In this document: piece after piece, positions 2,216 to 55,015 of the stretch
Numbering within the stretch: position 1 is the stretch's first letter
Layout of the letters: each line of letters begins with the position of its first letter
DNA from: a bacterium
GTDB taxonomy: Bacteria; Patescibacteriota; Minisyncoccia; UBA6257; UBA9933
NCBI GenBank assembly: GCA_021786355.1
Contig: JAJYNK010000009.1
Span: forward strand, 517-64,516
DNA length: 64,000 nucleotides
Direction: 5' to 3'
The notes under the pieces: model-generated
The model's database searches: none
Told to the model about the DNA's origin: nothing
What the model saw: the letters and a program-made list of their open reading frames with translations, nothing else
Position numbers and translations under genes: made by a program

Positions 2216-3154
2216 ATGTACACAAAGAATTTTAAGAAATTATCTAAAGAAAACACTGGCACTGCAGGAGGCAAGGGAGCGTCACTGGGAGAAATGACTC
2301 GAGCCGGTATTCCAGTGCCGCCCGGATTCGTAGTTTTAGCGCAAGCTTTTGACAATTTTTTAGAAGAAACCGATTTGGGCGTTGAAATTGAGGCGCTGCT
2401 TCATAAAGTAAAGGTTAAGGACATAAACCCCATTGAAAAAGTTTCCGAAGAAATCAGGAATTTAATTTTAAGCGCCAAATTTCCCAAAGATATCGCCAAA
2501 GAGATTTTGATTGAATTTTCCAAGCTAAAAGCAAAATACGTAGCGGTAAGAAGTTCAGCCACTGCCGAGGATTCCTTTACCGCTTCCTGGGCCGGAGAGC
2601 TGGAAACCTATTTAAATACCTCAAAGGAAAATCTTTTGGAAAATGTTAAAAAGTGCTGGGCATCGCTTTTCACTCCCCGAGCTATTTTTTACCGCTTTGA
2701 AAAAAAATTGAACAGGCAAAAGGTTTCCGTGGCGGTTGTTGTGCAGAAAATGGTCCAGTCGGAAATTTCGGGCATTACTTTCACGGTTCATCCGGTAACA
2801 AAAGATTATAACCAAATGGTGATTGAAGCCGGATATGGCCTTGGCGAAGCGATTGTTGGGGGCAAAATCACTCCGGATACCTATATAGTGCATAAAATTA
2901 AAAATACTATTTTAGACGCGAATATCTCCGAACAAAAAATGATGGTTGTCCGCCACGGAAACGGCACAAAAGAAGACGTCGTCCCTAAAGCCAAGCAGAA
3001 AAAGCAGAAGTTGTCTGATAAGTATATTTTAGAACTGGTAAAAATATGCCAGAATATAGAAAATTATTATAAAAAACCACAGGATATTGAATGGGCTTTG
3101 GAGAAAAATAAATTTTATATTGTTCAAAGCAGGCCGATTACAACATTAAAATAA
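2216..3154 (+). CDS. Stand-alone PEP synthase / pyruvate phosphate dikinase N-terminal ATP-grasp (PPDK_N) domain protein
   Basis: GTAGGKGASLGEMTRAGIPVPPGFVV matches the N-terminus of PpsA (GGKNASLGEM). At 312 aa it ends before any His domain. Its start codon directly follows the stop of the His-domain gene. Confidence 0.8.
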   Translation: MYTKNFKKLSKENTGTAGGKGASLGEMTRAGIPVPPGFVVLAQAFDNFLEETDLGVEIEALLHKVKVKDINPIEKVSEEIRNLILSAKFPKDIAKEILIEFSKLKAKYVAVRSSATAEDSFTASWAGELETYLNTSKENLLENVKKCWASLFTPRAIFYRFEKKLNRQKVSVAVVVQKMVQSEISGITFTVHPVTKDYNQMVIEAGYGLGEAIVGGKITPDTYIVHKIKNTILDANISEQKMMVVRHGNGTKEDVVPKAKQKKQKLSDKYILELVKICQNIENYYKKPQDIEWALEKNKFYIVQSRPITTLK

Positions 3155-3192
3155 CTTTGACTATATAAAAGTTTTTGCTATATTTACCGGAT

Positions 3193-3264
3193 GCGAGTGT
3201 AGCTCAGTGGTAGAGCACCGCCCTTATAAGACGGCCGTCGCAGGTTCGATCCCTGCCACTCGCA
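3193..3264 (+). tRNA. tRNA with anticodon UAU (Ile-AUA decoder)
   Basis: Hand-folded cloverleaf: acceptor GCGAGTG/CACTCGC, D arm GCTC-AGTGGTA-GAGC, anticodon loop CTTATAA, T arm GCAGG-TTCGATC-CCTGC. There is one C-A mismatch in the anticodon stem. No encoded CCA. Confidence 0.55.
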
Positions 3265-3288
3265 CTTTTTTTGTTATAATAAATACAT

Positions 3289-3897
3289 ATGGAATCTTTG
3301 TTTTTAAACCTCTCCGAAGTTCACCGAATACTCGCGTATCTGGCTATATTTATAGGAATGTTCATAGAAGGAGAAATTATTTTGGTGCTCACCGGGGTGT
3401 TAGTAAGAAGCGGGGCTATTAGTTTTTTCCCTTCGCTGTTAACGGCTTTTGTTGGAGTTATTTTGTGTGATCTTTTTTATTGGAGCCTGGGGAAAAGATT
3501 GGTTGAAAGCGGAAGAAAAAAATTTTTATTTTTCACAACCGAGAATACCGCGCCAATTTTGCGGAAGCTGGAAAAAAGAAGCGGTTTTTGGATTTTTATT
3601 TCTAAATTCGCTTGGAATTTAAACAGAGTGGTTTTGGTCTGCGCCGGTTATTCAAAAATTTCTCTTAAAAAACTTCTAAAATACAGCGCCACCGCCGCGG
3701 CCGTCTGGACAGCCTTATTAATTTCTCTCGGATACATTTTCGCCCACCAAACCGATATTCTTAAACACGACTTAAAACGCGCTGCTCTATTTTTGACGCT
3801 TTTAATAATAGGCGTTATATTCTTTGAGTACGCTCTTAAAAAAGTTTTTAATGCGTTAAGCAACGGCGGTAACGGAAATACGACTGAAACGCATTAA
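3289..3897 (+). CDS. DedA/SNARE-associated (VTT domain) membrane protein
   Basis: About 200 aa and multi-TM. Carries an IFIGMFIEGEIILVLTGVL..FFPSLLTAFVGVILCDLFYWSLGKR pattern typical of the DedA family. Confidence 0.7.
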   Translation: MESLFLNLSEVHRILAYLAIFIGMFIEGEIILVLTGVLVRSGAISFFPSLLTAFVGVILCDLFYWSLGKRLVESGRKKFLFFTTENTAPILRKLEKRSGFWIFISKFAWNLNRVVLVCAGYSKISLKKLLKYSATAAAVWTALLISLGYIFAHQTDILKHDLKRAALFLTLLIIGVIFFEYALKKVFNALSNGGNGNTTETH

Positions 3898-3926
3898 AAG
3901 CTCGTGGAAATAAAATTATAATTATC

Positions 3927-4000
3927 GGGCGATTAGCTCAGTTGGTTAGAGCGTCTCGTTTACACCGAGAAGGCCGGGGGTTCGAATCCCTCATCGCCCA
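3927..4000 (+). tRNA. tRNA-Val (anticodon UAC)
   Basis: Acceptor GGGCGAT/ATCGCCC, D arm GCTC-AGTTGGTTA-GAGC, anticodon stem TCTCG/CGAGA with loop TTTACAC, T arm GGGGG-TTCGAAT-CCCTC, discriminator A. Confidence 0.8.
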
Positions 4001-4024
4001 CAAATATTTAAACTCCTTAATTTA

Positions 4025-4053
4025 TTGTAATAATCGAACCCGTATGCTATATT
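4025..4053 (+). promoter_or_regulatory. Putative sigma70 promoter TTGTAA-N17-TATATT upstream of the 4085 gene
   Basis: Hexamers at 4025-4030 and 4048-4053 with 17-nt spacing, about 30 nt upstream of the ATG at 4085. Confidence 0.35.
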
Positions 4054-4084
4054 CAATATAGCAATTATCTTCACCAGTTCGATT

Positions 4085-4738
4085 ATGAAGCAAGATAAAA
4101 AACAAAAAGCGCGGGAACTCCGAGCTTATGGTTACTCTCTGAACGAGATTGCGAAAAACTTAAACGTTTCAAAAAGCAGCGCGAGTATCTGGGTCCGCAA
4201 CGTCGCCCTAACCAAAGACCAGGAGAAAACGTTATCAAGGCGTACCGCGAAACTCTCTGTTGTGGAAAAAAGACGCGCAACTCGACTAGCTCGGAAAATC
4301 GCCTCACAAGAAAACCTCTTAAACCAATCGCAAAAGCAAATAAAGAAAGTGACCCAAAATGAGCTCCGGCTAATTGGCTCGGTATTGTATTGGACAGGGG
4401 GAGGAAAAACCCAAAAAGGCCTTGTCCGGTTCTCAAACAGCGATCCAGAGACGGTTAAGCTAATGATGGCTTTTTTTAGGAGCGTTTGCGAGGTTCCGGA
4501 ATACAAATTTCGGGGCCATATTTATACCCAACCCCACATAAACCCGCGAAACGCAGAAAAATACTGGTCGGAAATTTCCGGCATCCCCTTAAAGCAATTT
4601 TTCAAACCCTCGGTAAAAAAAGCTACTAAATCCAAAAAAGGGTGGCTTTCTTATGGATCTTTTGAAATCTATATCTGTAATGTTGAGCTATTCTTAAAAA
4701 TCCAGGGGTGGGTTAAGGGCATTTTTGCCTTTTTTTAG
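4085..4738 (+). CDS. HTH-domain protein. The N-terminal helix-turn-helix is LNEIAKNLNVSKSSASIW. The C-terminal half is loosely reminiscent of a degenerate LAGLIDADG-type nuclease fold.
   Basis: RAYGYSLNEIAKNLNVSKSSASIWVRN is an HTH-like segment. The C-terminal part (LIGSVLYWTGGGK..) has no confident family match. Confidence 0.35.
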   Translation: MKQDKKQKARELRAYGYSLNEIAKNLNVSKSSASIWVRNVALTKDQEKTLSRRTAKLSVVEKRRATRLARKIASQENLLNQSQKQIKKVTQNELRLIGSVLYWTGGGKTQKGLVRFSNSDPETVKLMMAFFRSVCEVPEYKFRGHIYTQPHINPRNAEKYWSEISGIPLKQFFKPSVKKATKSKKGWLSYGSFEIYICNVELFLKIQGWVKGIFAFF

Positions 4739-5004
4739 TTCGGCAATTGCCGAACTAACCAATTGGCAAGTTGCCGAACTTTTTTATTAAAACACTAGAA
4801 AATGTTTATCAAGTTTTGATAAACATTTTCTAGCCTAATTTTAGACTAATCTGTCGTAAAAGATTGTTTATCAAAACTTGATAAACATTTTTTATACTTT
4901 AGACCCCTGAAATTTGTTTTAAAGTGTTTGTTGTCTACACAAGCCAGACATTTTAATTCGGCAAAGCCACTGTTTTAATTCGGCAATGGTCATTGCCGAA
5001 TTAA
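4737..5004. repeat. Palindrome-dense convergent intergenic region
   Basis: P1 at 4737-4756 is a 20-bp perfect palindrome (AGTTCGGCAATTGCCGAACT) followed by a GGCAA-GT-TTGCC hairpin and a T-run that acts as a terminator. P2 at 4795-4833 is a 39-bp palindrome around TGTTTATCAA-GTT-TTGATAAACA. P3 at 4865-4887 is the inverted copy TGTTTATCAA-AAC-TTGATAAACA. P4 at 4975-5004 is TTAATTCGGCAATG-GT-CATTGCCGAATTAA. The four are arranged with overall dyad symmetry. Confidence 0.7.
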
Positions 5005-5030
5005 AAAACCTATAAATAACGGTGGTAGAA

Positions 5031-5534
5031 TTAATCCTTAAACTTGTTTAAAAACCGTTCCTCGTCATAAATTCCCCATTTATAAAGCCGGTACAACGAT
5101 TTGTGCCTATCGGAAACATCCGGATCGCTACCGATTTTTTCAAGCCAATTAACGAATTGAGTCCCTTTATATCCATGTAATTTCTTATAAAATAGAGGAA
5201 TTATTATGTCTTTTAATTGATCAAATTCTCGCACTATTAAAGTAGCCCTTCTTCCGCGTTTTACTCCATCTCCTTGCCATGATTTATGATTATAAATTTT
5301 ATTTCTCAGACCTAACTTTTCCTTAACTAATCTAATAAGTTTCTCGTCTCTTTCGTGCATTGCCAGCACAAATGCCGGTTGTTTTTGCTTTCTCCCATCA
5401 CTTTTTTTATATCCTGGAGTAAATGAGAAACATCCCTCTCCATCAATAAGCCCTCTTATATAATCAAAGGTTAATGGATTTGTTTCAAATTGTTTCGCGG
5501 CCAACATTGGCACCATATTTTTATATTGTATCAC
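5031..5534 (-). CDS. LAGLIDADG homing endonuclease (single-motif, homodimer type)
   Basis: YIRGLIDGEGCFSF is a canonical LAGLIDADG motif. At 167 aa it is free-standing. Confidence 0.8.
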   Translation of the reverse strand: MIQYKNMVPMLAAKQFETNPLTFDYIRGLIDGEGCFSFTPGYKKSDGRKQKQPAFVLAMHERDEKLIRLVKEKLGLRNKIYNHKSWQGDGVKRGRRATLIVREFDQLKDIIIPLFYKKLHGYKGTQFVNWLEKIGSDPDVSDRHKSLYRLYKWGIYDEERFLNKFKD

Positions 5535-5566
5535 CGATTAACATTTAGTATAATTATATCATAATA

Positions 5567-5944
5567 ATGACTCTAAAATCTGAATTGGGTAATTATGGCG
5601 AAGATTTGGCTTGCGAGTACTTGGTTAACAACAAATACCGGATTATCGAGCGGAATTATAAAAAGCCGTGGGGAGAAATCGATATTGTAGCAATAGACCC
5701 TGACAAAACCCTTGTTTTTATAGAAGTCAAAACTCTCCGGCAATCTACTAATTTTGGCCTAAAACCTGAGGATCAATTAACCTCTTCTAAACTTAAAAAA
5801 GTGGCCAGGACCGCCTCTTTATATTCAAACGCTAACCAAGGCTTAATAAATAAGACGAGGGGATGGCGAATTGATTTGATCGCTATAACCCTGAATAACG
5901 CTGACAGCCCAACTATTTCTCATTATAAAAATATTTCTATTTGA
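5567..5944 (+). CDS. yraN: YraN family (UPF0102) endonuclease-like protein
   Basis: GEDLACEYLVNNKYRIIERNYKKPWGEIDIVA...LVFIEVKT fits the UPF0102 pattern. About 120 aa. Confidence 0.75.
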   Translation: MTLKSELGNYGEDLACEYLVNNKYRIIERNYKKPWGEIDIVAIDPDKTLVFIEVKTLRQSTNFGLKPEDQLTSSKLKKVARTASLYSNANQGLINKTRGWRIDLIAITLNNADSPTISHYKNISI

Positions 5945-5965
5945 CTGTATTTATAGGGTATTTAC

Positions 5966-6068
5966 CCCCACACCAAACGAGGATTAAATCAAATCCACAG
6001 CTTTGATAAAGCGAATTTATTCCGTCAACTGACGGAATAAATTAAAATATCCTCGTTTGGTGTGGGGG
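5966..6068. repeat. Hairpin repeat, family C copy 1. A 20-bp perfect inverted repeat (CCCCCACACCAAACGAGGAT / ATCCTCGTTTGGTGTGGGGG) encloses a nested 11-bp hairpin TTATTCCGTCA-AC-TGACGGAATAA.
   Basis: Read directly from the sequence. A second copy with a different but complementary inner stem lies at 39529-39666. Confidence 0.8.
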
Positions 6069-6134
6069 TTTACAAGATTTAAAAAATATGCTATTATTTA
6101 GTTAGATCGTAAAAAAATCTTTGAGGGGGTAAAA

Positions 6135-6317
6135 ATGTTCAACTACACGAACCAGAAGCACAACAGCAAAAGGAAGCGGAGTGACCGCTTCACTCGCAAG
6201 TTTTTCCAGCCGATATTCAGCGGAATGCTGGCCATGACCGTGTTCGCCTTCATGATGGTGATCCTGACCTCTCGCTATCCCGCTTTCATGAAGTCGATCC
6301 TAACATTCCATTACTAG
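6135..6317 (+). CDS. Small hydrophobic protein (60 aa) in a higher-GC cassette
   Basis: G-rich RBS GAGGGGGTAAAA before the ATG. One predicted TM segment (MLAMTVFAFMMVILT). Local GC is clearly above the surroundings. Confidence 0.3.
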   Translation: MFNYTNQKHNSKRKRSDRFTRKFFQPIFSGMLAMTVFAFMMVILTSRYPAFMKSILTFHY

Positions 6318-6336
6318 GAAAGGAAGGAGGTGCGCC

Positions 6337-6621
6337 GTGCTGGATGTCTGGGTTTTTGAAACAGGTAGGAAACTCGGCAACCCGAACATGGTTCAGATAT
6401 GGACAGAAGGTGTTATTATACCCTTCCGTCACAAGAAACACTTCGGCCGTCGCATAATAACGGCCGGCGGCGTAAACGAAAGGTTCAAGCCGGGCGCACA
6501 TACCCGCGACACTCACAACTACTTTGTCGCGCCGGCTGCTTTTGCCTTGGCCTGCGACAAAGCTAAAGAGTATTTCCGAAGAAACCCCCCAGAAAAGAAA
6601 GGAGATTGGGTCCCCGCATAG
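6337..6621 (+). CDS. Hypothetical 94-aa protein in a higher-GC cassette
   Basis: AGGAGG RBS directly upstream (GTG at 6331 or ATG at 6337). Followed by a rho-independent terminator. Confidence 0.35.
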   Translation: MLDVWVFETGRKLGNPNMVQIWTEGVIIPFRHKKHFGRRIITAGGVNERFKPGAHTRDTHNYFVAPAAFALACDKAKEYFRRNPPEKKGDWVPA

Positions 6622-6640
6622 GGACCCTTTTTTTTACGCA
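6608..6640 (+). terminator. Rho-independent terminator GGGTCCC-CGCATA-GGGACCC followed by T8
   Basis: A perfect 7-bp GC stem plus a T-run directly after the 6337 ORF. Confidence 0.75.
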
Positions 6641-6661
6641 AAAAGCGGGGTAAGCAAAATT

Positions 6662-8008
6662 TTATTTTAAAGCTTCTAATACTGTTTCTTTTTCATCCCA
6701 GTAGATTTTCTTACCATTTTTGATGCACATTGATACTTCTCCTCCTTTGCCGGTTAAAACCACGACATCGCCTTTTTTCGCAAAAGAAAAAACTTTTTGG
6801 ATCGCTTCTTTTCTGTCTATAATTTTATTTACGGTTGCGAATTTTTTCGGATTATTGCGAAGTCCGGCTCGAACGCCTTCTTCAATATCGTCTAGAATTT
6901 GATTTGGATTTTCGTCGTAAGGATCTTCATTCGTTAAAATTATCTTGTCACAATATTGAGCGGCAATATTTCCCATTTTCGGCCTCTTCCATCTGTCGCG
7001 TCCGCCGCCTTGAGCCCCTAATAAACAAATCAATGAGTTTTTAGCTGATAGCTTATAGCTTATAGCAGCTTTATAAACCGATTCCAAGCTAAACGGTTCG
7101 TGCGCGTAATCAATAATAACCGTAAATCCTTTTTTATTTTCCACTTTTTCCAATCTGCCGGGGGTTTGTTTTGCCTTGCCGATAATAGGCTTTATTTTAT
7201 CAAGCGGAACGCCCTGCGACATCGCAACGGCAATAGCGGCTACCGCATTGTAAACATTAAATTCTCCTATCAGGGGGGTTTTAAATCTCTCGCTTTTGAT
7301 TGAAAATTTCGATCCCTCCGGCCCCAGTTCAACTTTCTTAATTTCAATTATTTTATCAAGGTTTAATTTTAAATTTTTATTTTTAAATTTTAAATTTTCT
7401 ATTGTGTACCCTATTTTTGTTTTTATTCCAGGCTCCAAAAAATATTTAACATCCGAATCATCCAAATTATAAATTCCTATGCTATTTTCTTTTTTGGCCA
7501 GTTTTTCAAATAGTTTTACTTTAGCGCTTCTATAATTTTCAAAACCGCCATGGCGTTCAATATGTTCGGGGGATAAATTGGTAAAAACCGCCACATCGTA
7601 ATCTATAAACCGGTGCCTATATTGCAAAATACCCTCTGAGGACGTTTCCACAACAGCATACCGGCATTTTAACTCGTCGGCTTGGCTTAAAAATTTCTGG
7701 AGCTTAAACCGGCCAAGCATAGTTTGCTTATGCTCATTTTTCCATTCTTCATCTCCTATGCGCACTAGAGCGGTTGTAACGAGCGCGGTTTTATAACCGA
7801 ATGAATTTAAGATTTGAGCAATAAGGTCACAAGTGGTGGTTTTGCCTTTTGTCCCTGTAACTCCGATAATTATCATATTCTTTGACGGAGAACCATAAAG
7901 AAACGCGCCTAAAAAAGCCAGCATCCAATGGTAAGCTGGCTGAAAAAATTCAAAAACCGGTTTTGGAATAGCTTTTCTTCCTAAATTTAAAATTTTTTCT
8001 AAATTCAT
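6662..8008 (-). CDS. Mur ligase family protein, MurE-like
   Basis: GVTGTKGKTTT P-loop, Mur ligase middle-domain pattern, GGGRDRWKRPKMG and a TNEDPYDENP (DNPR-like) C-terminal motif. Assignment among MurE/MurF paralogs is uncertain. Confidence 0.65.
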   Translation of the reverse strand: MNLEKILNLGRKAIPKPVFEFFQPAYHWMLAFLGAFLYGSPSKNMIIIGVTGTKGKTTTCDLIAQILNSFGYKTALVTTALVRIGDEEWKNEHKQTMLGRFKLQKFLSQADELKCRYAVVETSSEGILQYRHRFIDYDVAVFTNLSPEHIERHGGFENYRSAKVKLFEKLAKKENSIGIYNLDDSDVKYFLEPGIKTKIGYTIENLKFKNKNLKLNLDKIIEIKKVELGPEGSKFSIKSERFKTPLIGEFNVYNAVAAIAVAMSQGVPLDKIKPIIGKAKQTPGRLEKVENKKGFTVIIDYAHEPFSLESVYKAAISYKLSAKNSLICLLGAQGGGRDRWKRPKMGNIAAQYCDKIILTNEDPYDENPNQILDDIEEGVRAGLRNNPKKFATVNKIIDRKEAIQKVFSFAKKGDVVVLTGKGGEVSMCIKNGKKIYWDEKETVLEALK

Positions 8009-13223: not shown

Positions 13224-14186
13224 TTGTTCAGCAAATTAACTAATCAACTAATTAACCAGACTGCAACACGCATGGCTGATATAAATAAACTACTTAAAAA
13301 CTATCTCGACTATCTTGAGATAGAGAAAGGCAGAACCAAAGAAACGCGGGAGAATTACGAACATTACTTAAAAACGTTTTTTGAATTTGCCAGAATAAAA
13401 TCCGAAAGCGATATCAACGCTGACAACGTAAGAGATTTTAGAATCTATCTGGCGCGGCTCCATAATCTTCGAGATGGTGAAAATTTTAAGCGCACAACTC
13501 AAAGCTATTATATAATAGCGCTTAGAAACTTTTTGAAATTTTTGGCGAAAAACGACTATAAAGTTTTGGCTTCGGAAAAAATCGAGCTTCCCAGGATCCC
13601 AAAACAACAAATAGACATAATGGAATACTCGGATTTGGAGCGGCTTATGGCGGCGCCCAAAACAACCGATTTAAAAGGGCTGCGCGACAAGGCGATTTTG
13701 GAAGTTTTGTTTTCAACCGGACTTCGAGTGTCGGAATTGTGCGCTTTAAACCGATATTTTGACTTGAATAGGGGAGAAATTTCCGTACGCGGTAAAGGCG
13801 GGAAAATACGAGTGGTATTTTTAGCCGACTCCGCTAAAAAAGCCATTAAAAATTATCTGGATAAACGAACCGACGCCGAAGAAGCTTTATTTGTGAGCTT
13901 AACCAAAGCAAAAAATCCAAAAGTGCTTGGAAGAATTATTCCTCGCACAGTCCAACGCTTGATAGATTTTTATGGAAGAAAGGCAGGCATCTCACAAAAA
14001 ATCCATCCGCATTTAATCCGACACAGCTTTGCCACTGATTTATTAATAGGCGGAGCGGATTTAAGGTCAGTACAGGAACTTTTAGGCCACAGCAATATCT
14101 CCACAACCCAGATTTATACGCACTTGACCAATAAAGAGCTTAAAGAAATACATAAAACTTTTCACGGGAGACGCAGGAGCGAGTAG
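13224..14186 (+). CDS. Tyrosine site-specific recombinase, XerC/XerD-like (true start possibly MADINK at 13272)
   Basis: Catalytic signatures LIRHSFATDLL (HxxR) and LGHSNISTTQIYTHL (Tyr) plus an N-terminal SAM-like core-binding domain. Confidence 0.85.
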   Translation: MFSKLTNQLINQTATRMADINKLLKNYLDYLEIEKGRTKETRENYEHYLKTFFEFARIKSESDINADNVRDFRIYLARLHNLRDGENFKRTTQSYYIIALRNFLKFLAKNDYKVLASEKIELPRIPKQQIDIMEYSDLERLMAAPKTTDLKGLRDKAILEVLFSTGLRVSELCALNRYFDLNRGEISVRGKGGKIRVVFLADSAKKAIKNYLDKRTDAEEALFVSLTKAKNPKVLGRIIPRTVQRLIDFYGRKAGISQKIHPHLIRHSFATDLLIGGADLRSVQELLGHSNISTTQIYTHLTNKELKEIHKTFHGRRRSE

Positions 14187-14239: not shown

Positions 14240-14263
14240 CGTTGTATAGTATACTATACAACG
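14240..14263. repeat. Palindrome CGTTGTATAGTATACTATACAACG, one of five copies of the TATAGTATACTATA-core palindrome
   Basis: Other copies at 16889-16912, 32445-32466, 43175-43200 (inside a CDS) and 54896-54923. Confidence 0.85.
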
Positions 14264-14303: not shown

Positions 14304-14324
14304 TTTGTGTCCTCGGTGGGAGTC
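14304..14324. repeat. 21-bp direct repeat TTTGTGTCCTCGGTGGGAGTC duplicating the tRNA-Leu 3' end (att-like). Second copy at 14483-14503.
   Basis: Identical 21-mer at both positions. The second copy includes the last 17 nt of the tRNA. Confidence 0.8.
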
Positions 14325-14486
14325 CTCTTCCCCCGTAATTTTTCGTTCATAAATAAACATGAAAAATTACTCCTCCAGAGCCGGGGTTTTAAAAAAGCAA
14401 AGCAGTTTGCTTTTTTAAATACCCTTCTCCTCCCTTGTGATGTAAAAACTATAAATCCCTTTGAAATCAAAGGGATTTATAGTTTG

Positions 14487-14568
14487 TGTCCTCGGTGGGA
14501 GTCGAACCCACAACCCTTACGGGATAGCGTCCTAAGCGCTACGCGTATTCCATTTCCGCCACGAGGAC
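14487..14568 (-). tRNA. tRNA-Leu (anticodon UAG), long variable arm
   Basis: Reverse complement folds as acceptor GTCCTCG/CGAGGAC, anticodon stem TAGCG/CGCTA with loop CTTAGGA, variable arm TCCCGTAAGGGTT, T arm GTGGG-TTCGACT-CCCAC. Confidence 0.8.
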
Positions 14569-16793: not shown

Positions 16794-17029
16794 ATTTATT
16801 ACAGTTTCATACGAATTATAAATACACACGGATTGGTGCGTATAAAAAAATAAAATAGTTTGCAAAATTAATTCGGAAATAAATTTTTAGTGGTATAGTA
16901 TACTATACCACTTAACCGTTTTATATCGCATATAAAAATTATTTATTGTAAGAATATTGATTATAGGAAAAATAATAAAAAACACCCCAGTAAATCGGAG
17001 TGTTTTTTTAAATCACTAAATAAATAAAT

Positions 17030-32374: not shown

Positions 32375-32497
32375 TGGGTTATTTTAGCATTTAAGATCGG
32401 CGCGCGAAAGCACTATTTTATAATTAATCAAAATTCTGCGCCGCGCACTATAGTATACTATAGTGCCATCAGCTAATCCAGGGTTGTCTTCGCTTAA

Positions 32498-41696: not shown

Positions 41697-41741
41697 TTCC
41701 TCAGAATATTCCTTCGGAACTAGTCGAATAGAATCGACCAA

Positions 41742-41773
41742 CCCCGCCAGTCTATGGACTGGCGGGGTTTTTT
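41742..41773 (+). terminator. Rho-independent terminator CCCCGCCAGTC-TATG-GACTGGCGGGG followed by T6
   Basis: Directly after the 3D-domain gene. Confidence 0.8.
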
Positions 41774-41967
41774 ACGCGGGCGACCATGATTTTCACTACT
41801 CGCGCGCGCCTCGCTAAGCTCGGCACGGCTGCGTTCTAAAACCCTGCGGTTTTAGTATTTCCGCAACGGGAAAACGAGTTTTCCCGACCCCTTTCTTGGC
41901 GGTTCAAATCCGCGATTCACATCAGAAAAATAAAACAACAGTTTCGACTGTTGTTTTATTTTTCTTG

Positions 41968-42041
41968 CGCGGGCGACCGGATTTGAACCGGCGACCTCTG
42001 CCGTGACAGGGCAGCGCTCTACCAGACTAAGCTACGCCCGC
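41968..42041 (-). tRNA. tRNA-Asp (anticodon GUC)
   Basis: Reverse complement folds as acceptor GCGGGCG/CGCCCGC, anticodon stem CTGCC/GGCAG with loop CTGTCAC, T arm GCCGG-TTCAAAT-CCGGT. The 5' end overlaps the last 15 nt of the LAGLIDADG ORF. Confidence 0.8.
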
Positions 42042-42695
42042 TTGCCGGTATATATTATATTTTCTCCTTAAATAAATCAACTTTTCTGGATTACGCTCGT
42101 ACATGAACATAAATAATTTTCCTGAGTCCCTAATAGAATAATTTAGATACCAAGAATTATCGCTTTTTTTAAAAAGTGATCCTGTAAGATTTATCGAATC
42201 CGATAAGGCCTTTTTTAACTCCTTGATAAAAACTTCGCTTCCTGAAGTAAACCGGCTAAGAAGTACTCGCGATTTGTTTTTTCGATCCGCTTTTTTAAAA
42301 AACCCGAATGAAACATTTCCGCCTCCATCAAAATAACCTCGCACAAAGTGGCAAAAATATTTACTTGGGACGCGTGGTAATTTTATTGTTTTGCTTTTTG
42401 CCGGAGTAAGACCTAATTTTATTAAGTCACAAAACATGGCCTTACTCCCTATTTGCAATCTATAAACGGTCTTGTGCTTTTTATCTCTTTGAATAATCGA
42501 AATTTTATGGTTTGATTCAAGAGTTTTTTGAATTTCTCTTAATAAATCCGCGTCTGTAATTTGAAACTCTATAAAATGCGCGCCTCTTTTGTTTTTAAGC
42601 ATATTCCCATCCGCCGTGAAAAACCCCAAAATATACGCCATTTCCGGAGTCCATTTTTTGAAAAAATTTTCGTTTTTTGTTTTATAAATCGGCAT
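42027..42695 (-). CDS. LAGLIDADG homing endonuclease (two-motif, monomeric type)
   Basis: Motifs AYILGFFTADGN and HFVRGYFDGGGNVSF. Confidence 0.8.
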   Translation of the reverse strand: MPIYKTKNENFFKKWTPEMAYILGFFTADGNMLKNKRGAHFIEFQITDADLLREIQKTLESNHKISIIQRDKKHKTVYRLQIGSKAMFCDLIKLGLTPAKSKTIKLPRVPSKYFCHFVRGYFDGGGNVSFGFFKKADRKNKSRVLLSRFTSGSEVFIKELKKALSDSINLTGSLFKKSDNSWYLNYSIRDSGKLFMFMYERNPEKLIYLRRKYNIYRQAGVA

Positions 42696-42729: not shown

Positions 42730-43563
42730 TTACTTCGGTTTTATAACTATAAATCTTTTCTTCCACCCTTTTTTAAATTCCTCTGTTGTGGCTTTTCTCT
42801 CAATAAGATTTGGATTGTTTATGTCGGGATCGGCGAATAAAACAATGTCGCCGTCTATCCCAAAAATAACCACCAAATGTCCGCCGTTTTGCGGATTTAG
42901 ATTCTTATATATGGAAGCTATGACCGGCCCGTTTTTTAACTCTTCAATCATTCGTTCAAAAGCGGTTTCCGTTTCTTCTTTCGCGAAATCAAATCTATTG
43001 CCCCTTAAACCAAAGTGTTTTACTGCGGCGTCTATTAATCCTTGATGCAGCCACCCTATGTTTTCTACATAAGCTTTGTTTTTGACCCCGTCGGAAATTA
43101 TAAAGTCAACTAAAAATTCGGAAAGTTTTTTCATCTTATCTTCGTCTACGTTTTTTGTCGGCCAAGCTCTTTCCAAGTGGTATAGTATACTATACCACTT
43201 GACTGAGTCGTGTTCGTCTAATAATTCGTTGAGTTTGTTTGTTTCGTTGCTTATCCAGTTTGCGTCATTTACGCTAGAAATAATCTTTGAATCTTTTAAA
43301 AGTTTTTTAATCGCTTTAACTACGTTTGGATCTTTTTTTGAAACACAATAAATCACAATCATCGCCAAAGAAGCGGGACCGCAGACTCTTTTTGCCCAAA
43401 ATTCGTTGCAGCCGTCGCCTTCGCAAAGCCCCTGTCCGTCCGGCAGGCGGGCATACCCGCTTTTGCCGATATCCAAATGCTGAGAAATGTTAACCGGAAG
43501 ATGGTGGCGAATTAAGAATTTTTTTTCCCGTCTTTTGTCCTGTTTTTTATTTATCGTATTCAT
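42730..43563 (-). CDS. Papain-like cysteine peptidase, C39-like family (Peptidase_C39_2-like)
   Basis: Cys box RVCGPASLAMIVIY and a C-terminal GGHLVVIFGIDGDIVLFADPD His/Asp region. The CDS contains a 26-bp perfect palindrome encoding KWYSILYHL. Confidence 0.5.
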   Translation of the reverse strand: MNTINKKQDKRREKKFLIRHHLPVNISQHLDIGKSGYARLPDGQGLCEGDGCNEFWAKRVCGPASLAMIVIYCVSKKDPNVVKAIKKLLKDSKIISSVNDANWISNETNKLNELLDEHDSVKWYSILYHLERAWPTKNVDEDKMKKLSEFLVDFIISDGVKNKAYVENIGWLHQGLIDAAVKHFGLRGNRFDFAKEETETAFERMIEELKNGPVIASIYKNLNPQNGGHLVVIFGIDGDIVLFADPDINNPNLIERKATTEEFKKGWKKRFIVIKPK

Positions 43564-47842: not shown

Positions 47843-48170
47843 CTAAAAAAATTTCCTTTGAGATTATTTCAATTACTTCTTTTGCTTCGAGTTTAAAAAT
47901 TTTTGCCGCTGGAGAAATTAAAATATCAATTCCTTTTTTAGAGGTATTTTTTTCTTGATTTTTTCCTTGACGGAAATATTCAAAAATTATTCTTTTAACT
48001 CGGTTCCGCCGAACTGAACTTTTTTCTGTTTTTTTGCTTATGACTAAGCCGACGCGATCAAATGGAAGTTGATTGGCCAAATACCTGAAATAAAAATTGG
48101 AGGTTTTGATAATTTTCGGTTTTTTTGATAAAAATTCCTTAACCGGCAGACGAAATTTCTTTGCCAACAT
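47835..48170 (-). CDS. rnpA: Ribonuclease P protein component
   Basis: SKKTEKSSVRRNRVKRI matches the RnpA RNR motif region. 111 aa, immediately downstream of rpmH. Confidence 0.8.
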   Translation of the reverse strand: MLAKKFRLPVKEFLSKKPKIIKTSNFYFRYLANQLPFDRVGLVISKKTEKSSVRRNRVKRIIFEYFRQGKNQEKNTSKKGIDILISPAAKIFKLEAKEVIEIISKEIFLVK

Positions 48171-48185
48171 TGGTTTTTGAAAAAA

Positions 48186-48320
48186 TTAAGCCGAAATTCT
48201 TTTTCTTCCTTTTGCTCTTCTTCTAGAAAGCGTTCTTTTGCCGCCGGAGGTTTTTGATCTCTTTAAAAATCCGTGCGAGCGAGCCCTTTTTCTTTTTTTG
48301 GGTTTATAGGTTATAGACAT
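48186..48320 (-). CDS. rpmH: 50S ribosomal protein L34 (44 aa; not in the ORF track because it is under 60 aa)
   Basis: Hand translation of the minus strand gives [44 protein letters not shown], matching the L34 consensus (..KRTFQPS..RKR.HGFR.RM.T..GR.VL..RR.KGR..L). Confidence 0.85.
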
Positions 48321-48497
48321 TATTTATTATTGTAGTAAAATCTTTTTAAAAATACAAGGGGGGGGAGGATGGTTTTTCTTATGTTTTAAAAGCGTTTTAA
48401 AAGTTATCAACACTTAATTCACATTTCTATCTTTTGCCTGCATTTGACATCGCTTTTTTTACTTATAAACTTGAGTTATTAGTTTTACTTCTTTTTT
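48321..48497. other. Origin-proximal AT-rich region upstream of dnaA (candidate oriC part 1)
   Basis: Classic rpmH-rnpA / dnaA-dnaN arrangement. Contains TTATCAACA (one mismatch to the DnaA box) at 48394-48402, a duplicated GTTTTAAAAG, and a G8 tract followed by GGAGG ATG and a 6-codon mini-ORF. Confidence 0.55.
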
Positions 48498-49856
48498 ATG
48501 GATCACGAACAAGTTTGGAAACAGGTTTTAGCAGAGGTTGAAATTCAATTATCCAAGCCCAATTTTGTTACGTGGTTTAAAAACAGCCGCTTAATTGAAA
48601 AAAACGACGACGGTCGAGTCATTGTCGGGCTCGGAAATAATTTCGCCAAGGAATGGGTTGAGAATAAATACCATAAATTGCTTAGCGACATTTTTTATTC
48701 ACTTGATTCGTCGGTAAAAAAGGTGGAATACGCTGTTTTGACATTGCCTGCCGAACAAAGACCGCAACCTTATAGCCGAGCGCCCGCGGTTTCAAGCCAA
48801 CCGGCGCTTATAGAGGTAAGAATCGATCCGGAAACGAATCTTCATCCTCGTTATAATTTTAAATCTTTTATTGTTGGGTCTTCAAATGAACTTGCTTACG
48901 CCGCTGCGATGGGGGTTGTTAAAGAGGTTGGATCAAAATATAATCCTCTTTTTATTTACGGGGGCACGGGACTTGGTAAGACCCATCTTCTTCAAGCGAT
49001 CGGCAATGAAATTAAATTTAATTACAAAGAGCGGCTTAAAACAAAATATGTTCCTTCGGAAAAATTCGTAAACGATATTATTTCGGGAATTCGTAATAAA
49101 AGGATGGAGGATATAAAAGACAAATATCGAAGCGTCGACGTTTTAATTATTGACGACATCCAATTTATCGCCGGCAAAGAAAGAAGTGAGGAAGAATTTT
49201 TCCACACTTTTAATGTTTTATACGATAGCGGCAAACAAATAATAATCTCGTCAGATAGACCGCCAGCGGCAACACCAATTTTAGAAGAGCGCCTAAGATC
49301 TCGTTTTAGCGGGGGAATGATCGCGGATATTGGTTTTCCGGATTATGAAATGAGGGTGGCCATAATAAAATCCAAAATTCGAGAAAAAGGAATGGGCCTG
49401 GAAGATGCTTTATGCTCCTTAATAGCCTCTAAAATACAAAGAAATATAAGGGAATTGGAAGGGGTTTTGAATAAGATCGTTTTTTACCAAGAAGCTAAAA
49501 ATATAGAGCCGAGCCATGAATTAATTAATGAAATAATAGAAAAAAACATCAAACAAACATTTAAAAACGTTTCTCCGACTCAAATAATAAAAGCGGTTTC
49601 CGGTTTTTTTGAAATTACTGAAAAAGAAATTTCCGACCACTCGCGCCGAAAAGAATTAGTGGAGCCAAGACAGATTGCGATGTATTTATTGAAAGATATT
49701 TTGGGGATGTCCTATTCTGATATTGGGAATAAGTTGGGGAAAAGAGACCACTCAACGGTTATTCACGCGTGCGAAAAGGTCTCAAAAAAGATTAATAATG
49801 ACCAGAAATTAAACCAAAAAATTATTTTAGTTAGAGAAATCATCGAGAAGAATTAA
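48498..49856 (+). CDS. dnaA: Chromosomal replication initiator protein DnaA
   Basis: AAA+ Walker A GGTGLGKTHLLQAIGNE, DnaA signature and a C-terminal HTH (..IAMYLLKDILGMSYSDIGNKLGKRDHSTVIHA). Confidence 0.95.
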   Translation: MDHEQVWKQVLAEVEIQLSKPNFVTWFKNSRLIEKNDDGRVIVGLGNNFAKEWVENKYHKLLSDIFYSLDSSVKKVEYAVLTLPAEQRPQPYSRAPAVSSQPALIEVRIDPETNLHPRYNFKSFIVGSSNELAYAAAMGVVKEVGSKYNPLFIYGGTGLGKTHLLQAIGNEIKFNYKERLKTKYVPSEKFVNDIISGIRNKRMEDIKDKYRSVDVLIIDDIQFIAGKERSEEEFFHTFNVLYDSGKQIIISSDRPPAATPILEERLRSRFSGGMIADIGFPDYEMRVAIIKSKIREKGMGLEDALCSLIASKIQRNIRELEGVLNKIVFYQEAKNIEPSHELINEIIEKNIKQTFKNVSPTQIIKAVSGFFEITEKEISDHSRRKELVEPRQIAMYLLKDILGMSYSDIGNKLGKRDHSTVIHACEKVSKKINNDQKLNQKIILVREIIEKN

Positions 49857-49973
49857 TTTATCAACAGAATTTAAACATTATTTTTTTTGATTTTTTTATT
49901 TAATTAAATGAATTTTTGCGCTTATCCACAAAATTTCATTCCTCTACTATAACTACAATTTATATTTATTATT
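49857..49973. other. dnaA-dnaN intergenic region with a perfect DnaA box TTATCCACA (49922-49930); candidate oriC part 2
   Basis: Consensus 9-mer seen directly, embedded in very AT-rich DNA. Confidence 0.6.
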
Positions 49974-51089: not shown

Positions 51090-51095
51090 GAAAAT

Positions 51096-54810: not shown

Positions 54811-55015
54811 GGTTGGTTGATTAGTTAATTGGTTAGCTGGCAAGAAGAGACAAGATAATAATAGAATAGAAACTAAGGAGATAAAAGTCAAAACCTAAGT
54901 TGTATAGTATACTATACAACTTAAACTTTCTTTTTTAGAGAATAATTTGTGTGTAAAAAACAGCCCGTTGGCGAAACGCCGCGGGGCTGGTGCAAAGAGC
55001 GAGAAAATCAGATGT

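What the first reader, a model, noticed from the sequence alone, without database searches (positions are those of the whole stretch)
4737..5004. Dyad-symmetric palindrome array between the convergent HTH gene and the LAGLIDADG gene
Four palindromes lie in the order P1, P2, P3, P4. P1 and P4 share the arm TTCGGCAAT. P2 and P3 are the same TGTTTATCAA-N3-TTGATAAACA site in opposite orientations, and P2 is a 39-bp perfect palindrome. This is more than a bidirectional terminator needs. Two operator-like sites between terminator-like hairpins could be recognition sites for the adjacent HTH protein or for the homodimeric LAGLIDADG nuclease, or a cruciform-prone recombination hotspot.
Basis: seen in the sequence. 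Interest (0 to 1): 0.5.

Follow-up and report, generated by a model that had tools for sequence, protein, structure and literature searches.

The report
Conserved two-motif palindrome array, function unproven
The four palindromes are real and sit in a 290-bp non-coding stretch that related ultra-small (CPR/Parcubacteria) bacteria conserve better than the genes around it; it probably combines transcription stop signals with binding sites for a still-unidentified protein.

Summary
P1 (4735-4758), P2 (4795-4833, perfect 18+3+18), P3 (core 4865-4887) and P4 (4973-5006) are as described. Both arm sequences occur nowhere else in the 64 kb.

Both flanking genes are LAGLIDADG-type: the "HTH" protein has an HTH plus one LAGLIDADG-fold domain.

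Six orthologous Wolfebacteria loci keep the array. Neutral (4-fold) sites are only 41-65% identical, yet the P3 arms are 100% identical and P2-P4 is 72-87%. The neighbouring LAGLIDADG gene is only 57-77%.

P1, P2 and P4 keep their hairpins through compensatory changes; centres vary or flip.

The LAGLIDADG_1 gene always pairs with yraN and is always followed by a 180-340-nt non-coding region. There the P2/P3 half-site class TGTTTNNC is about 20-fold enriched, sometimes as 10-bp-phased direct repeats that cannot form hairpins.

Best reading (confidence 0.4): P1 and P2 terminate the HTH gene, and P2/P3 (motif B) and P1/P4 (motif A) are sequence-specific protein-binding sites, binder unknown.

Live rivals: terminators only, or a minus-strand small RNA ending at P3.

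Not supported: MITE/REP, dif, canonical parS, DnaA-box cluster, any Rfam family, or P2/P3 as LAGLIDADG cleavage sites.

The parts
4085..4738 (+). 217-aa gene with an N-terminal HTH and a single LAGLIDADG-fold domain. In this clade the family's acidic residue is lost (YWTGGGK instead of LYWAEGGK).
4735..4758 (.). P1, a motif-A palindrome (TTAGTTCGGCAA|TTGCCGAACTAA). The TAG stop codon of the 217-aa gene lies in its left arm.
   Evidence: A hairpin of -21 to -27 kcal/mol is kept in all orthologs with different inner stems: AA/TT, AATCC/GGATT, CTCCC/GGGAG.
4771..4786 (+). Third motif-A arm (TTGCCGAACT) followed by TTTTTT. Paired with the P1 left arm it forms a -23.3 kcal/mol hairpin plus U-tract, a canonical intrinsic terminator for the 217-aa gene.
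   Evidence: (D3, I20).
4795..4833 (.). P2, a perfect 18+3+18 palindrome made of two inverted motif-B half-sites (AAAATGTTTATC) with A-tract/T-tract flanks. It looks like a bidirectional terminator.
   Evidence: I3; -19.7 kcal/mol. Compensatory change ATCAA/TTGAT to GCCAA/TTGGC in L016/L018. The centre is inverted (GTT versus AAC) in L103.
4846..4864 (.). Near-invariant left flank of P3 (CTAATCTGTCGTAAAAGAT).
   Evidence: Positions 4854-4864 are invariant in 10 of 11 columns across 7 orthologs; alignments.
4865..4887 (.). P3 core, TGTTTATCAA-AAC-TTGATAAACA. Both arms are 100% identical in all 7 orthologous sequences and only the centre varies (AAC, ACC, ACT). TTTTTT follows on the + strand and ATCTTTT on the - strand.
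4888..4936 (.). Conserved block after P3 (37 of 49 columns invariant). It contains AAATTTGTTTTAAAGTGTT and the core AACAAACAC (read on the - strand). The core lies 78-105 nt from the LAGLIDADG stop codon in 7 lineages.
4950..4978 (-). Promoter-like TTAAAA-17-TAAAAT, built from two direct copies of GCCGAATTAAAA. It would start a minus-strand RNA near 4943.
   Evidence: The same prediction appears in L005, L016 and L115, but not in L020 or L103. This is inference only.
4951..4965 (.). Extra unpaired motif-A copy (TTTTAATTCGGCAAA), 22 nt from the left arm of P4.
   Evidence: D2; 14 of 16 columns invariant.
4973..5006 (.). P4, a motif-A palindrome (TTTTAATTCGGCAATG-GT-CATTGCCGAATTAAAA). It can be read as 9+4+9. 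No T-run follows on either strand.
   Evidence: I6; -16.8 kcal/mol. The centre varies or flips (GGTC, GACC, GGCT, GACT), and L103 has a 10-nt longer centre.
5031..5516 (-). LAGLIDADG_1 gene (161 aa from the ATG, 167 aa from the GTG at 5534). It is the constant neighbour of the array.
   Evidence: Pfam E=2e-11. Homolog loci all show the order yraN, LAGLIDADG_1, 180-340-nt spacer.
5567..5944 (+). yraN (UPF0102), the divergent partner of the LAGLIDADG_1 gene in every lineage examined.
   Evidence: Function taken from bioRxiv 10.1101/2024.02.06.579203.

Best explanation
The 292-bp spacer between the two convergent LAGLIDADG-type genes is a conserved non-coding control region. It is built from two short motifs, each present as a palindrome plus extra single copies: motif A (AATTCGGCAAT, in P1/P4) and motif B (AAAATGTTTNNC, in P2/P3).

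It does two jobs.
1. RNA 3'-end formation. P1 with its third arm and T6, backed up by P2, terminates the HTH-LAGLIDADG gene. P3/P2 are the first hairpins with a U-tract that the LAGLIDADG_1 transcript meets.
2. Protein binding. The motif copies are sequence-specific sites on double-stranded DNA for one or more dimeric or multimeric proteins, bound on one face of the helix.

What is shown: the anatomy, the conservation, the compensatory changes and the motif enrichment across lineages. What is inferred: that termination occurs, that a protein binds, and which protein it is. The adjacent HTH-LAGLIDADG-fold protein and the LAGLIDADG_1 protein are only candidates.
For: - Constraint. Fourfold-degenerate sites of the 217-aa gene are 41-65% identical between the window and its orthologs. 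Yet the P3 arms are 20/20 invariant, the P3 left flank 10/11, the extra P4 arm 14/16 and the post-P3 block 37/49.
- Controls. P2-P4 is 72-87% identical, against 12-67% for three other spacers and 57-66% for the LAGLIDADG coding sequence. So co-conversion by homing does not explain the conservation.
- Pattern. Arms are conserved while centres and spacers vary.
- Motif B. TGTTTNNC occurs at 16.7 per kb in the equivalent region of 9 lineages, against 0.82 per kb in the window background. Clusters of at least 4 occur only in these regions among 116 loci. In L113, L115, L109 and L111 adjacent copies are direct repeats 9-11 bp apart, which cannot form hairpins.
- Motif A. It has 4-6 copies per lineage including unpaired ones. 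The copies co-vary between lineages (AATTCGGCAAT, AATGCGGCAAT, TTTAAGCCA) and are spaced 11 or 21-24 nt apart.
- Helical phase. L020 has an exact 10-bp deletion between P2 and P3, taking the centre-to-centre distance from 62 to 52 bp.
- Terminator role. The P1 hairpin is retained at -21 to -27 kcal/mol through compensatory inner-stem changes. P1 plus the third arm gives -23.3 kcal/mol followed by T6. P2 shows two compensatory pairs. This genome routinely uses perfect A-tract/stem/T-tract palindromes at gene ends.
Against: - No binding protein is identified and nothing was tested biochemically.
- Positions 6-7 of motif B differ between P2 and P3 in the same genome (GCC versus ATC in L016), so specificity would rest on TGTTT..C alone.
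- L107 has no motif-B copy.
- The sites lie downstream of both genes, an unusual place for operators.
- Palindrome-rich 3' spacers are common in this genome.
- Conservation of the P3-to-P4 block fits a small RNA equally well.
- Only 7 close orthologs and 6 distant lineages were available.
Confidence: 0.4

Rival explanations
1. Terminators only. All four palindromes are RNA hairpins that end or stabilise the two convergent transcripts and keep them apart. The extra conservation reflects hairpin maintenance.
For: - The array lies between convergent stop codons.
- P1 with its third arm is followed by T6. P2 and P3 have an A-tract, stem and T-tract like other gene-end palindromes in this genome.
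- Compensatory changes occur in P1, P2 and P4, and the loops are variable.
Against: - The P3 arms and 11 nt of unpaired flank are invariant where P2 drifts freely. A structure-only constraint does not require this.
- P4 has no U-tract on either strand.
- The P3 core stem is only -7.5 kcal/mol.
- Unpaired extra arm copies are conserved.
- In other lineages the same motif occurs as direct repeats.
Confidence: 0.2
2. A small non-coding RNA on the minus strand. It would either have its own promoter or be derived from the 3'UTR of the LAGLIDADG_1 mRNA. It would start near 4943 from the TTAAAA-17-TAAAAT element inside the P4 repeats and end at the P3 hairpin, giving an RNA of about 90 nt.
For: - The promoter-like site is found in the window and again in L005, L016 and L115, 15-20 nt upstream of a core (ACAACCAACAC) that lies 78-105 nt from the LAGLIDADG stop in 7 lineages.
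- The most conserved block, 4846-4936, falls exactly between this site and P3.
- P3 is followed by AUCUUUU on the minus strand.
- Folding z-scores are -8 to -12.
Against: - No Rfam family matches.
- No covariation is seen outside P2.
- The promoter element is missing in L020 and altered in L103.
- In L107 the conserved module is inverted relative to the LAGLIDADG gene.
- This model does not explain the motif-B direct-repeat arrays that lie downstream of the candidate RNA in L113 and L115.
Confidence: 0.2
3. Recognition or cleavage (homing) sites of the neighbouring homodimeric LAGLIDADG proteins.
For: - Both neighbours have the LAGLIDADG fold and a single domain, so each would act as a dimer on palindromic DNA.
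- P4 can be read as TTCGGCAAT-GGTC-ATTGCCGAA. This is the 9+4+9 layout known for I-CreI-type sites (general knowledge), and five of six orthologs with a complete P4 keep it.
Against: - P2 and P3 are odd-length palindromes, and so are the motif-A palindromes of L107, L109 and L111. This does not fit a 4-nt staggered cut on a two-fold axis.
- An intact target next to an active nuclease gene would be self-destructive.
- The P3/P4 arms stay invariant in L005 and L020, where LAGLIDADG_1 is about 50% identical and reads GVG instead of GEG.
- The 217-aa protein of this clade lacks the acidic residue.
Confidence: 0.07
4. A non-functional palindromic mobile element (MITE/REP-like), or simply a recombination-prone cruciform region.
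For: - Terminal inverted match TTTTTTAGTTCGGCAAT / ATTGCCGAATTAAAAAA, 17 nt at 94% (I5).
- Centre inversions in P2 and P4, loss of a 22-nt unit, 10-nt insertions and a module inversion in L107.
- Contigs break inside P3 and P4.
Against: - No other copy of either arm in 64 kb.
- Only one exact P3-type site in the whole representative genome of the related species.
- Same position and order in all orthologs, and conservation above neutral.
Confidence: 0.05
5. An origin-proximal chromosome-maintenance site: a parS-like centromere or a DnaA-box cluster.
For: - The array lies 44 kb from dnaA-dnaN/oriC.
- Motif B (TGTTTNNC, and TGTTTCAC in four lineages) equals a parS half-site (general knowledge).
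- TTATCAAAA inside P2/P3 matches 8 of 9 positions of the oriC boxes TTATCAACA.
Against: - No 16-bp parS within 2 mismatches in the window or in any locus.
- No ParB among the ORFs tested near oriC.
- The last positions of the DnaA box fall in the variable centre of P3.
- Motif B is absent from the oriC spacers.
- One-mismatch DnaA boxes are common in the window (49 matches).
Confidence: 0.05

Closest known systems
Bidirectional intrinsic (Rho-independent) terminators between convergent genes
   Same: The array lies between two stop codons. It has A-tract/stem/T-tract palindromes, compensatory stem evolution and variable loops. P1 with its third arm, and P2, fit the pattern.
   Different: There are four hairpins with shared arms plus unpaired arm copies. 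P3 shows sequence-level invariance. P4 has no U-tract. In other lineages the same motif occurs as direct repeats.
Multi-site operator or iteron-type arrays: response-regulator boxes such as B. subtilis PhoP TT(A/T/C)ACA repeats with an 11-bp period, DnaA-box clusters, plasmid iterons
   Same: A short motif is repeated 4-9 times in about 300 bp, in both orientations. Spacings of 10-11 or 21-24 bp recur, and one indel preserves helical phase. TTAACA, TTTACA and TTCACA lie inside motif B in L113, L115 and L111.
   Different: No cognate protein is known. The array lies downstream of both genes. The window clade's variant (TTATCA) departs from those consensus sequences. The resemblance comes from memory and was not tested.
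parS / ParB-family sites (TGTTNCACGTGNAACA)
   Same: The half-site TGTTTNNC is shared, the sites are palindromic, and the location is origin-proximal (44 kb).
   Different: The half-sites are separated by 7 bp rather than abutting. No canonical parS and no ParB were found.
I-CreI-type homodimeric LAGLIDADG target sites
   Same: P4 can be read as 9+4+9, and single-domain LAGLIDADG genes lie next door.
   Different: P2 and P3 are odd-length. The sites sit intact beside the gene and stay unchanged while the protein diverges to 50% identity and loses its catalytic Glu.
REP/BIME and MITE palindromic repeats; inverted DUS/USS pairs that act as terminators in competent bacteria
   Same: Palindromes at gene 3' ends, in inverted pairs, next to a recombination/competence gene (yraN).
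   Different: They are not dispersed. Both arm sequences are unique to this locus in 64 kb and in the related representative genome.

Membership tests
Intrinsic terminator | Stable stem-loop directly followed by a U-tract, downstream of a stop codon, on the sense strand | tested here: met
   Met for P1 with its third arm (-23.3 kcal/mol, then TTTTTT), P2 (core hairpin then TTTTC on both strands) and P3 on the + strand (TTTTTT). Not met for P4, which has no T-run on either strand.
Intrinsic terminator | Structure rather than sequence is conserved (compensatory changes) | tested here: met
   Met for the P1 inner stem (AA/TT, AATCC/GGATT, CTCCC/GGGAG), for P2 (AT/AT to GC/GC) and for the P4 extension in L103. 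P3 is invariant, so it gives no information.
Homodimeric LAGLIDADG target site | Even-length pseudo-palindrome of about 22 bp: 9-bp half-sites around a 4-bp centre | tested here: not met
   P2 and P3 are 10+3+10, an odd length. P4 alone fits 9+4+9 in 5 of 6 orthologs with a complete P4.
Homodimeric LAGLIDADG target site | Specific binding or cleavage by the cognate enzyme | not testable with these tools
   Needs a biochemical assay. Indirect evidence against: the arms are invariant while LAGLIDADG_1 drops to 50% amino-acid identity and reads GVG instead of GEG.
REP / MITE | Many dispersed copies in the same genome | tested here: not met
   Both arm motifs occur only in the array within 64 kb. 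There is one exact P3-type site in the related representative genome. The full source genome was not available.
parS | 16-bp palindrome TGTTNCACGTGNAACA | tested here: not met
   There is no match with 2 or fewer mismatches in the window; the 3 matches at 3 mismatches equal chance. There is no exact match in 116 loci.
parS | ParB encoded in the genome | tested here: inconclusive
   Ten ORFs near oriC carry no ParB domain. The rest of the genome was not seen.
DnaA-box cluster / oriC | Several TTATNCACA boxes with conserved 3' CACA | tested here: not met
   P2 and P3 carry TTATCAAAA (8 of 9), but box positions 8-9 lie in the variable centre. The exact boxes and dnaA-dnaN are at 48.4-49.9 kb.
dif / Xer site | A single site at the replication terminus | tested here: not met
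   There are two copies, and the array lies 44 kb from oriC.
Any Rfam RNA family (including group I intron, 6S, SRP, RNase P) | Covariance-model score at or above the gathering threshold | tested here: not met
   In 3000-7000 only the tRNAs pass. The array gives sub-threshold hairpin matches to miRNA models only, 26-32 bits against thresholds of 80-90.
Bacterial small RNA gene | Own promoter, terminator and conservation without coding signal | tested here: inconclusive
   A promoter-like site is present in 4 of 11 sequences examined and a terminator-like P3 follows it. The 31-codon minus-strand frame is non-coding: variable columns by codon position are 8/5/5. No expression data are available.
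WhiA-like DNA-binding LAGLIDADG proteins (for the 217-aa neighbour) | LAGLIDADG fold without catalytic acidic residues, plus an HTH | tested here: met

The most novel reading that the evidence does not exclude
The array is the window clade's version of an ancient Parcubacteria-wide nucleoprotein site. That site would be permanently linked to the competence/recombination nuclease gene yraN and a domesticated LAGLIDADG_1 gene, and it lies 44 kb from oriC. On this reading it is a new kind of chromosomal cis-element, for example a centromere-like, DnaA/ParB-type titration or recombination-control site. Its two motifs would be read by LAGLIDADG-fold DNA-binding proteins rather than by classical regulators.
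Probability: 0.12. Interest if true: 0.75.

Novelty: new variant of a known kind. Interest (0 to 1): 0.5.

Why it matters
CPR/Patescibacteria have tiny genomes with little spare DNA and almost no characterised cis-regulatory elements. Here a roughly 300-nt non-coding region is kept more faithfully than its flanking genes. It is always tied to yraN, recently shown to be a transformation D-loop nuclease, and to a LAGLIDADG gene. That gives a concrete, experimentally approachable handle: gel shifts with two small proteins, and read mapping in existing metatranscriptomes.

If the sites are bound by the LAGLIDADG-fold neighbours, this would be a case of homing-endonuclease domestication into site-specific DNA binding, in the manner of WhiA. 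If instead the region encodes an RNA, it would be an undescribed CPR small RNA.

Tried and rejected
1. Small protein gene. A minus-strand frame (..NKHFKTNFRGLKYKKCLSSFDKQSFTTD*) is open in all orthologs. It lacks a start codon in the window and L103 and loses its stop in L016/L018. Variable columns by codon position are 8/5/5, and 12 of 15 variable codons change the amino acid. Rejected.
2. Replication terminus, dif or Ter. dnaA-dnaN, exact DnaA boxes and the GC-skew minimum place oriC at about 48-50 kb, only 44 kb away. Rejected.
3. Canonical parS. None found.
4. DnaA-box cluster. The critical 3' positions of the box vary.
5. MITE/REP. No other copies.
6. Conservation caused by homing co-conversion. 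The LAGLIDADG gene is the least conserved segment of the locus. Rejected.
7. Hidden tRNA with a group I intron, an idea taken from PMC13011429. There is no Rfam or ARAGORN signal and no T-arm sequence.
8. Array as a general companion of the HTH gene. Eighty distant loci have none. Instead that family sits next to tRNA-Val.
9. Neighbour genes of the distant arrays (L105, L107). They have no Pfam domain, and the L105 163-aa neighbour shows no relation to the 217-aa family.
11. Viral collection scans (protein and both palindromes) gave nothing relevant. The three motif-A hits lie within apparently unrelated sequence at about the number expected by chance.
12. Multiple alignment of the distant lineages' spacers was too poor for a covariance model.
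Full report
**Observation.**
- P1 is a 12+0+12 perfect palindrome at 4735-4758.
- P2 is an 18+3+18 perfect palindrome at 4795-4833.
- P3 is a 10+3+10 perfect core at 4865-4887. Extended to 4859-4893, its 16-nt arms are 88% complementary.
- P4 is a 16+2+16 perfect palindrome at 4973-5006.

TTCGGCAAT occurs four times in the window, all in P1 and P4. TGTTTATCAA-N3-TTGATAAACA occurs twice, at P2 and P3, even with three mismatches allowed, against 0.04 expected. P2 and P3 differ only in the centre, GTT versus AAC.

Two features were missed. A third P1-type arm (4771-4780) is followed by TTTTTT, and an extra P4-type half copy lies at 4951-4965.

This genome is rich in perfect palindromes overall: 31 with arms of at least 9 nt against about 3 in shuffles, many of them A-tract/stem/T-tract structures at gene ends. 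Another cluster of four lies at 41740-41965. Density alone is therefore not unusual here. The sharing of arms is.

**Context.** The window comes from a Candidatus Wolfebacteria-like (Parcubacteria/CPR) genome. Nine public contigs carry the 1450-bp query that covers both genes and the spacer at 100% identity; L015 is truncated and matches 1345 bp.

The other neighbour is a clear LAGLIDADG_1 protein, transcribed divergently from yraN (UPF0102). [quoted passage not shown] Both flanking genes are therefore single-domain LAGLIDADG-fold proteins, expected to act as dimers.

**Orthologs and constraint.** A scan of 185,579 species-representative genomes for the P2/P3 pattern gave six hits. That is about the number expected by chance for 20 specified bases. 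One hit is the syntenic locus of a related Wolfebacteria MAG, L005. Exact-protein look-ups added L016/L017, L018/L019, L020/L021, L022 and L103/L104.

Against these orthologs:
- The 217-aa gene is 70-80% identical in protein, and only 41-65% identical at fourfold-degenerate sites.
- The LAGLIDADG_1 gene is 50-75% identical in protein and 58-77% in DNA.
- In L005 and L020 its catalytic GEG motif reads GVG.

The array is better kept than either gene. Both P3 arms are invariant (20/20), as are 10 of 11 positions of the P3 left flank, 14 of 16 of the extra P4 arm and 37 of 49 of the block after P3. Centres and spacers vary. In global alignments P2-P4 is 72-87% identical with deletions counted as mismatches. 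Three other spacers are 12-67% identical and the LAGLIDADG coding sequence 57-66%.

Because the endonuclease gene is the least conserved segment, co-conversion during homing cannot explain the conservation. Purifying selection on the non-coding DNA can.

**How the individual palindromes evolve.**
- P1 keeps a hairpin of -21 to -27 kcal/mol in every ortholog while its inner stem changes in a compensatory way (AA/TT, AATCC/GGATT, CTCCC/GGGAG) and its loop length changes. With the third arm it forms a -23.3 kcal/mol hairpin followed by T6, a canonical terminator for the 217-aa gene.
- P2 shows the double compensatory change ATCAA/TTGAT to GCCAA/TTGGC, with L005/L022 as an intermediate.
- The 39-bp P2 of L103 is identical to the window's except that its centre is inverted. 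The P4 centre is likewise inverted between L022 and L005, which are close relatives.
- L020 has lost one 22-nt P4 repeat unit and exactly 10 bp between P2 and P3. L103 (in P4) and L005 (in P1) carry 10-nt longer centres.
- Contigs L017 and L018 end in the middle of P4, and L019 ends at the end of P3.

These are marks of palindrome-driven mutation and of assembly trouble.

P4 has no T-run on either strand, so it is not a canonical terminator. P3 has a weak core stem (-7.5 kcal/mol) but is flanked by A- and T-tracts.

**Which gene does the array belong to?** The 217-aa family is widespread in Parcubacteria. In 50 of 53 loci scanned it lies directly next to tRNA-Val(UAC), in either relative orientation. 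None of 80 distant loci has a comparable array downstream.

The LAGLIDADG_1 family behaves differently. In every lineage examined (L103, L105, L107, L109, L111, L113, L115) it is the divergent partner of yraN and is followed by a 180-340-nt non-coding region. The next gene varies. Those tested in L105 and L107 have no Pfam domain, and the L105 neighbour shows no relation to the 217-aa family.

Those regions are highly structured (z = -3 to -12) and carry lineage-specific palindromes, but they share two motif classes.
- Motif B, TGTTTNNC, is the P2/P3 half-site. Variants are TGTTTATC, TGTTTGCC, TGTTTCAC, TGTTTAAC and TGTTTTAC. It occurs at 16.7 per kb there against 0.82 per kb in the window background. 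Clusters of at least 4 in 300 nt occur only in these regions among 116 loci and the window. In L113, L115, L109 and L111 adjacent copies are direct repeats 9-11 bp apart. That arrangement cannot form hairpins but places the copies on one face of the DNA helix.
- Motif A comprises the P1/P4 arms: AATTCGGCAAT here, AATGCGGCAAT in L105, TTTAAGCCA in L111. It occurs 4-6 times per region as one palindrome plus unpaired copies, spaced 11 or 21-24 nt apart.

A 12-nt core (ACAACCAACAC-like) lies 78-105 nt from the LAGLIDADG stop codon in seven lineages.

**Interpretation.** Three observations are the signature of sequence-specific recognition rather than of hairpin structure alone:
- a motif conserved whether or not it can pair;
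- unpaired copies that co-vary with the palindrome arms;
- spacing and one indel that respect the helical repeat.

I therefore read the array as a two-motif protein-binding platform in which some palindromes (P1 with its third arm, and P2) also serve as intrinsic terminators. The binder is unknown.
- The LAGLIDADG_1 protein is the constant neighbour. However, its strong divergence and loss of Glu while P3/P4 stay invariant argue against it.
- The odd symmetry of P2/P3 also argues against cleavage-type LAGLIDADG recognition. Only P4 fits a 9+4+9 layout.
- The 217-aa HTH-LAGLIDADG protein is well conserved in this clade and has a WhiA-like make-up. But arrays exist elsewhere without it next door, and its own promoter carries a different conserved palindrome (4045-4063).

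**Rivals.**
- Terminators only. This explains P1 and P2 but not the invariance of P3 and its flank, P4's missing U-tract, the unpaired copies or the direct repeats.
- A minus-strand small RNA. A TTAAAA-17-TAAAAT element built from the P4 repeats recurs in L005, L016 and L115 just upstream of the conserved core, and P3 would terminate it. This fits the boundaries of the most conserved block. Against it: there is no Rfam match and no covariation outside P2, the promoter is missing in L020, and the module is inverted in L107.
- A small ORF, rejected.
- dif or Ter, rejected because oriC is 44 kb away (dnaA 48498-49856, dnaN 49974-51089, exact DnaA boxes at 48404, 49858 and 49922, skew minimum near 44 kb).
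- Canonical parS and a DnaA-box cluster, not supported.
- MITE/REP, not supported.

**Verdict.** The element is not an artefact and not simply a terminator. It belongs to no described family, but it is built from known kinds of parts: terminator hairpins and repeated recognition motifs. Its function remains inferred. Interest is moderate (0.5). It would rise considerably if binding by a LAGLIDADG-fold protein, or a Parcubacteria-wide role linked to yraN, were shown.

Noticed in passing
window 3927-4001 and 4085-4738; loci L016-L101: The 217-aa HTH-LAGLIDADG family lies directly next to tRNA-Val(UAC) in 50 of 53 Parcubacteria loci scanned. The tRNA can be in either orientation, and the gene is often inside a Leu-Val-[gene]-Phe-Gly tRNA cluster. 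This looks like a free-standing, possibly domesticated endonuclease gene tied to one tRNA gene. One contig (L029/L097) carries two copies.
   Followed up: partly
window 5031-5944; L103, L105, L107, L109, L111, L113, L115: The LAGLIDADG_1 gene and yraN (UPF0102) form a conserved divergent pair in every lineage examined, 50-75% protein identity to the window protein. This is more like a fixed host locus than a sporadic homing endonuclease gene. The Glu of the GEG motif is invariant across the 22-sequence alignment, but L005 and L020 read GVG.
   Followed up: partly
window 14244-14259, 16893-16908, 32448-32463, 43180-43195, 54902-54917: The palindrome GTATAGTATACTATAC recurs five times, four of them exact, against 0 expected. 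It often carries longer complementary flanks (GGTATAGTATACTATACC). It contains two back-to-back -10-like hexamers, so it could be a bidirectional promoter or an operator motif.
   Followed up: partly
window 14306-14324 and 14486-14568: A 19-nt copy of one end of the tRNA-Leu(TAG) gene (TGTGTCCTCGGTGGGAGTC) is repeated about 180 nt away, next to a tyrosine recombinase gene at 13224-14186. It looks like an attachment-site remnant of an integrated element.
   Followed up: no
window 41740-42695: A third LAGLIDADG gene (LAGLIDADG_3, 42027-42695, - strand) abuts tRNA-Asp (41967-42041). A second cluster of four perfect palindromes, with unrelated arms, lies at 41740-41965.
   Followed up: no
window 47843-51612: The replication origin region is in the window. 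dnaA is at 48498-49856 and dnaN at 49974-51089. Exact DnaA boxes (TTATCMACA) are at 48404, 49858, 49922 and 51604. The cumulative GC-skew minimum is near 44 kb.
   Followed up: yes
window 4022-4084: The promoter region of the 217-aa gene is 81-90% identical across orthologs. It is kept even in L018, where the upstream context differs and tRNA-Val is absent. It contains the palindrome TGCTATATTCAATATAGCA (4045-4063) over the -10 element, and the inverted pair AATCGAAC / GTTCGATT. This is a likely autoregulatory operator.
   Followed up: partly
L017 and L018 (ends), L019 (end): Metagenome contigs of two related strains stop in the middle of P4, and a Logan contig stops at the last base of P3. 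The palindromes, or sequence shared between strains, break assemblies, so this locus will often be missing or split in MAGs.
   Followed up: no
window 6014-6043 and 5945-6336: A further 14+2+14 perfect palindrome (AATTTATTCCGTCAACTGACGGAATAAATT) lies downstream of yraN in a 390-nt spacer. That spacer is 61-67% identical to the orthologs, and blastn aligns 6069-6644 with L005 at 85%. Rfam gives only sub-threshold hits.
   Followed up: no
L107 2213-2250 versus window 4903-4936: The conserved module CCCYTRAAATTTGTTTYAAAGTGTTGG lies in the opposite orientation relative to the LAGLIDADG_1 gene in L107/L108, immediately after its stop codon. This points to an inversion of part of the array in that lineage.
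   Followed up: partly
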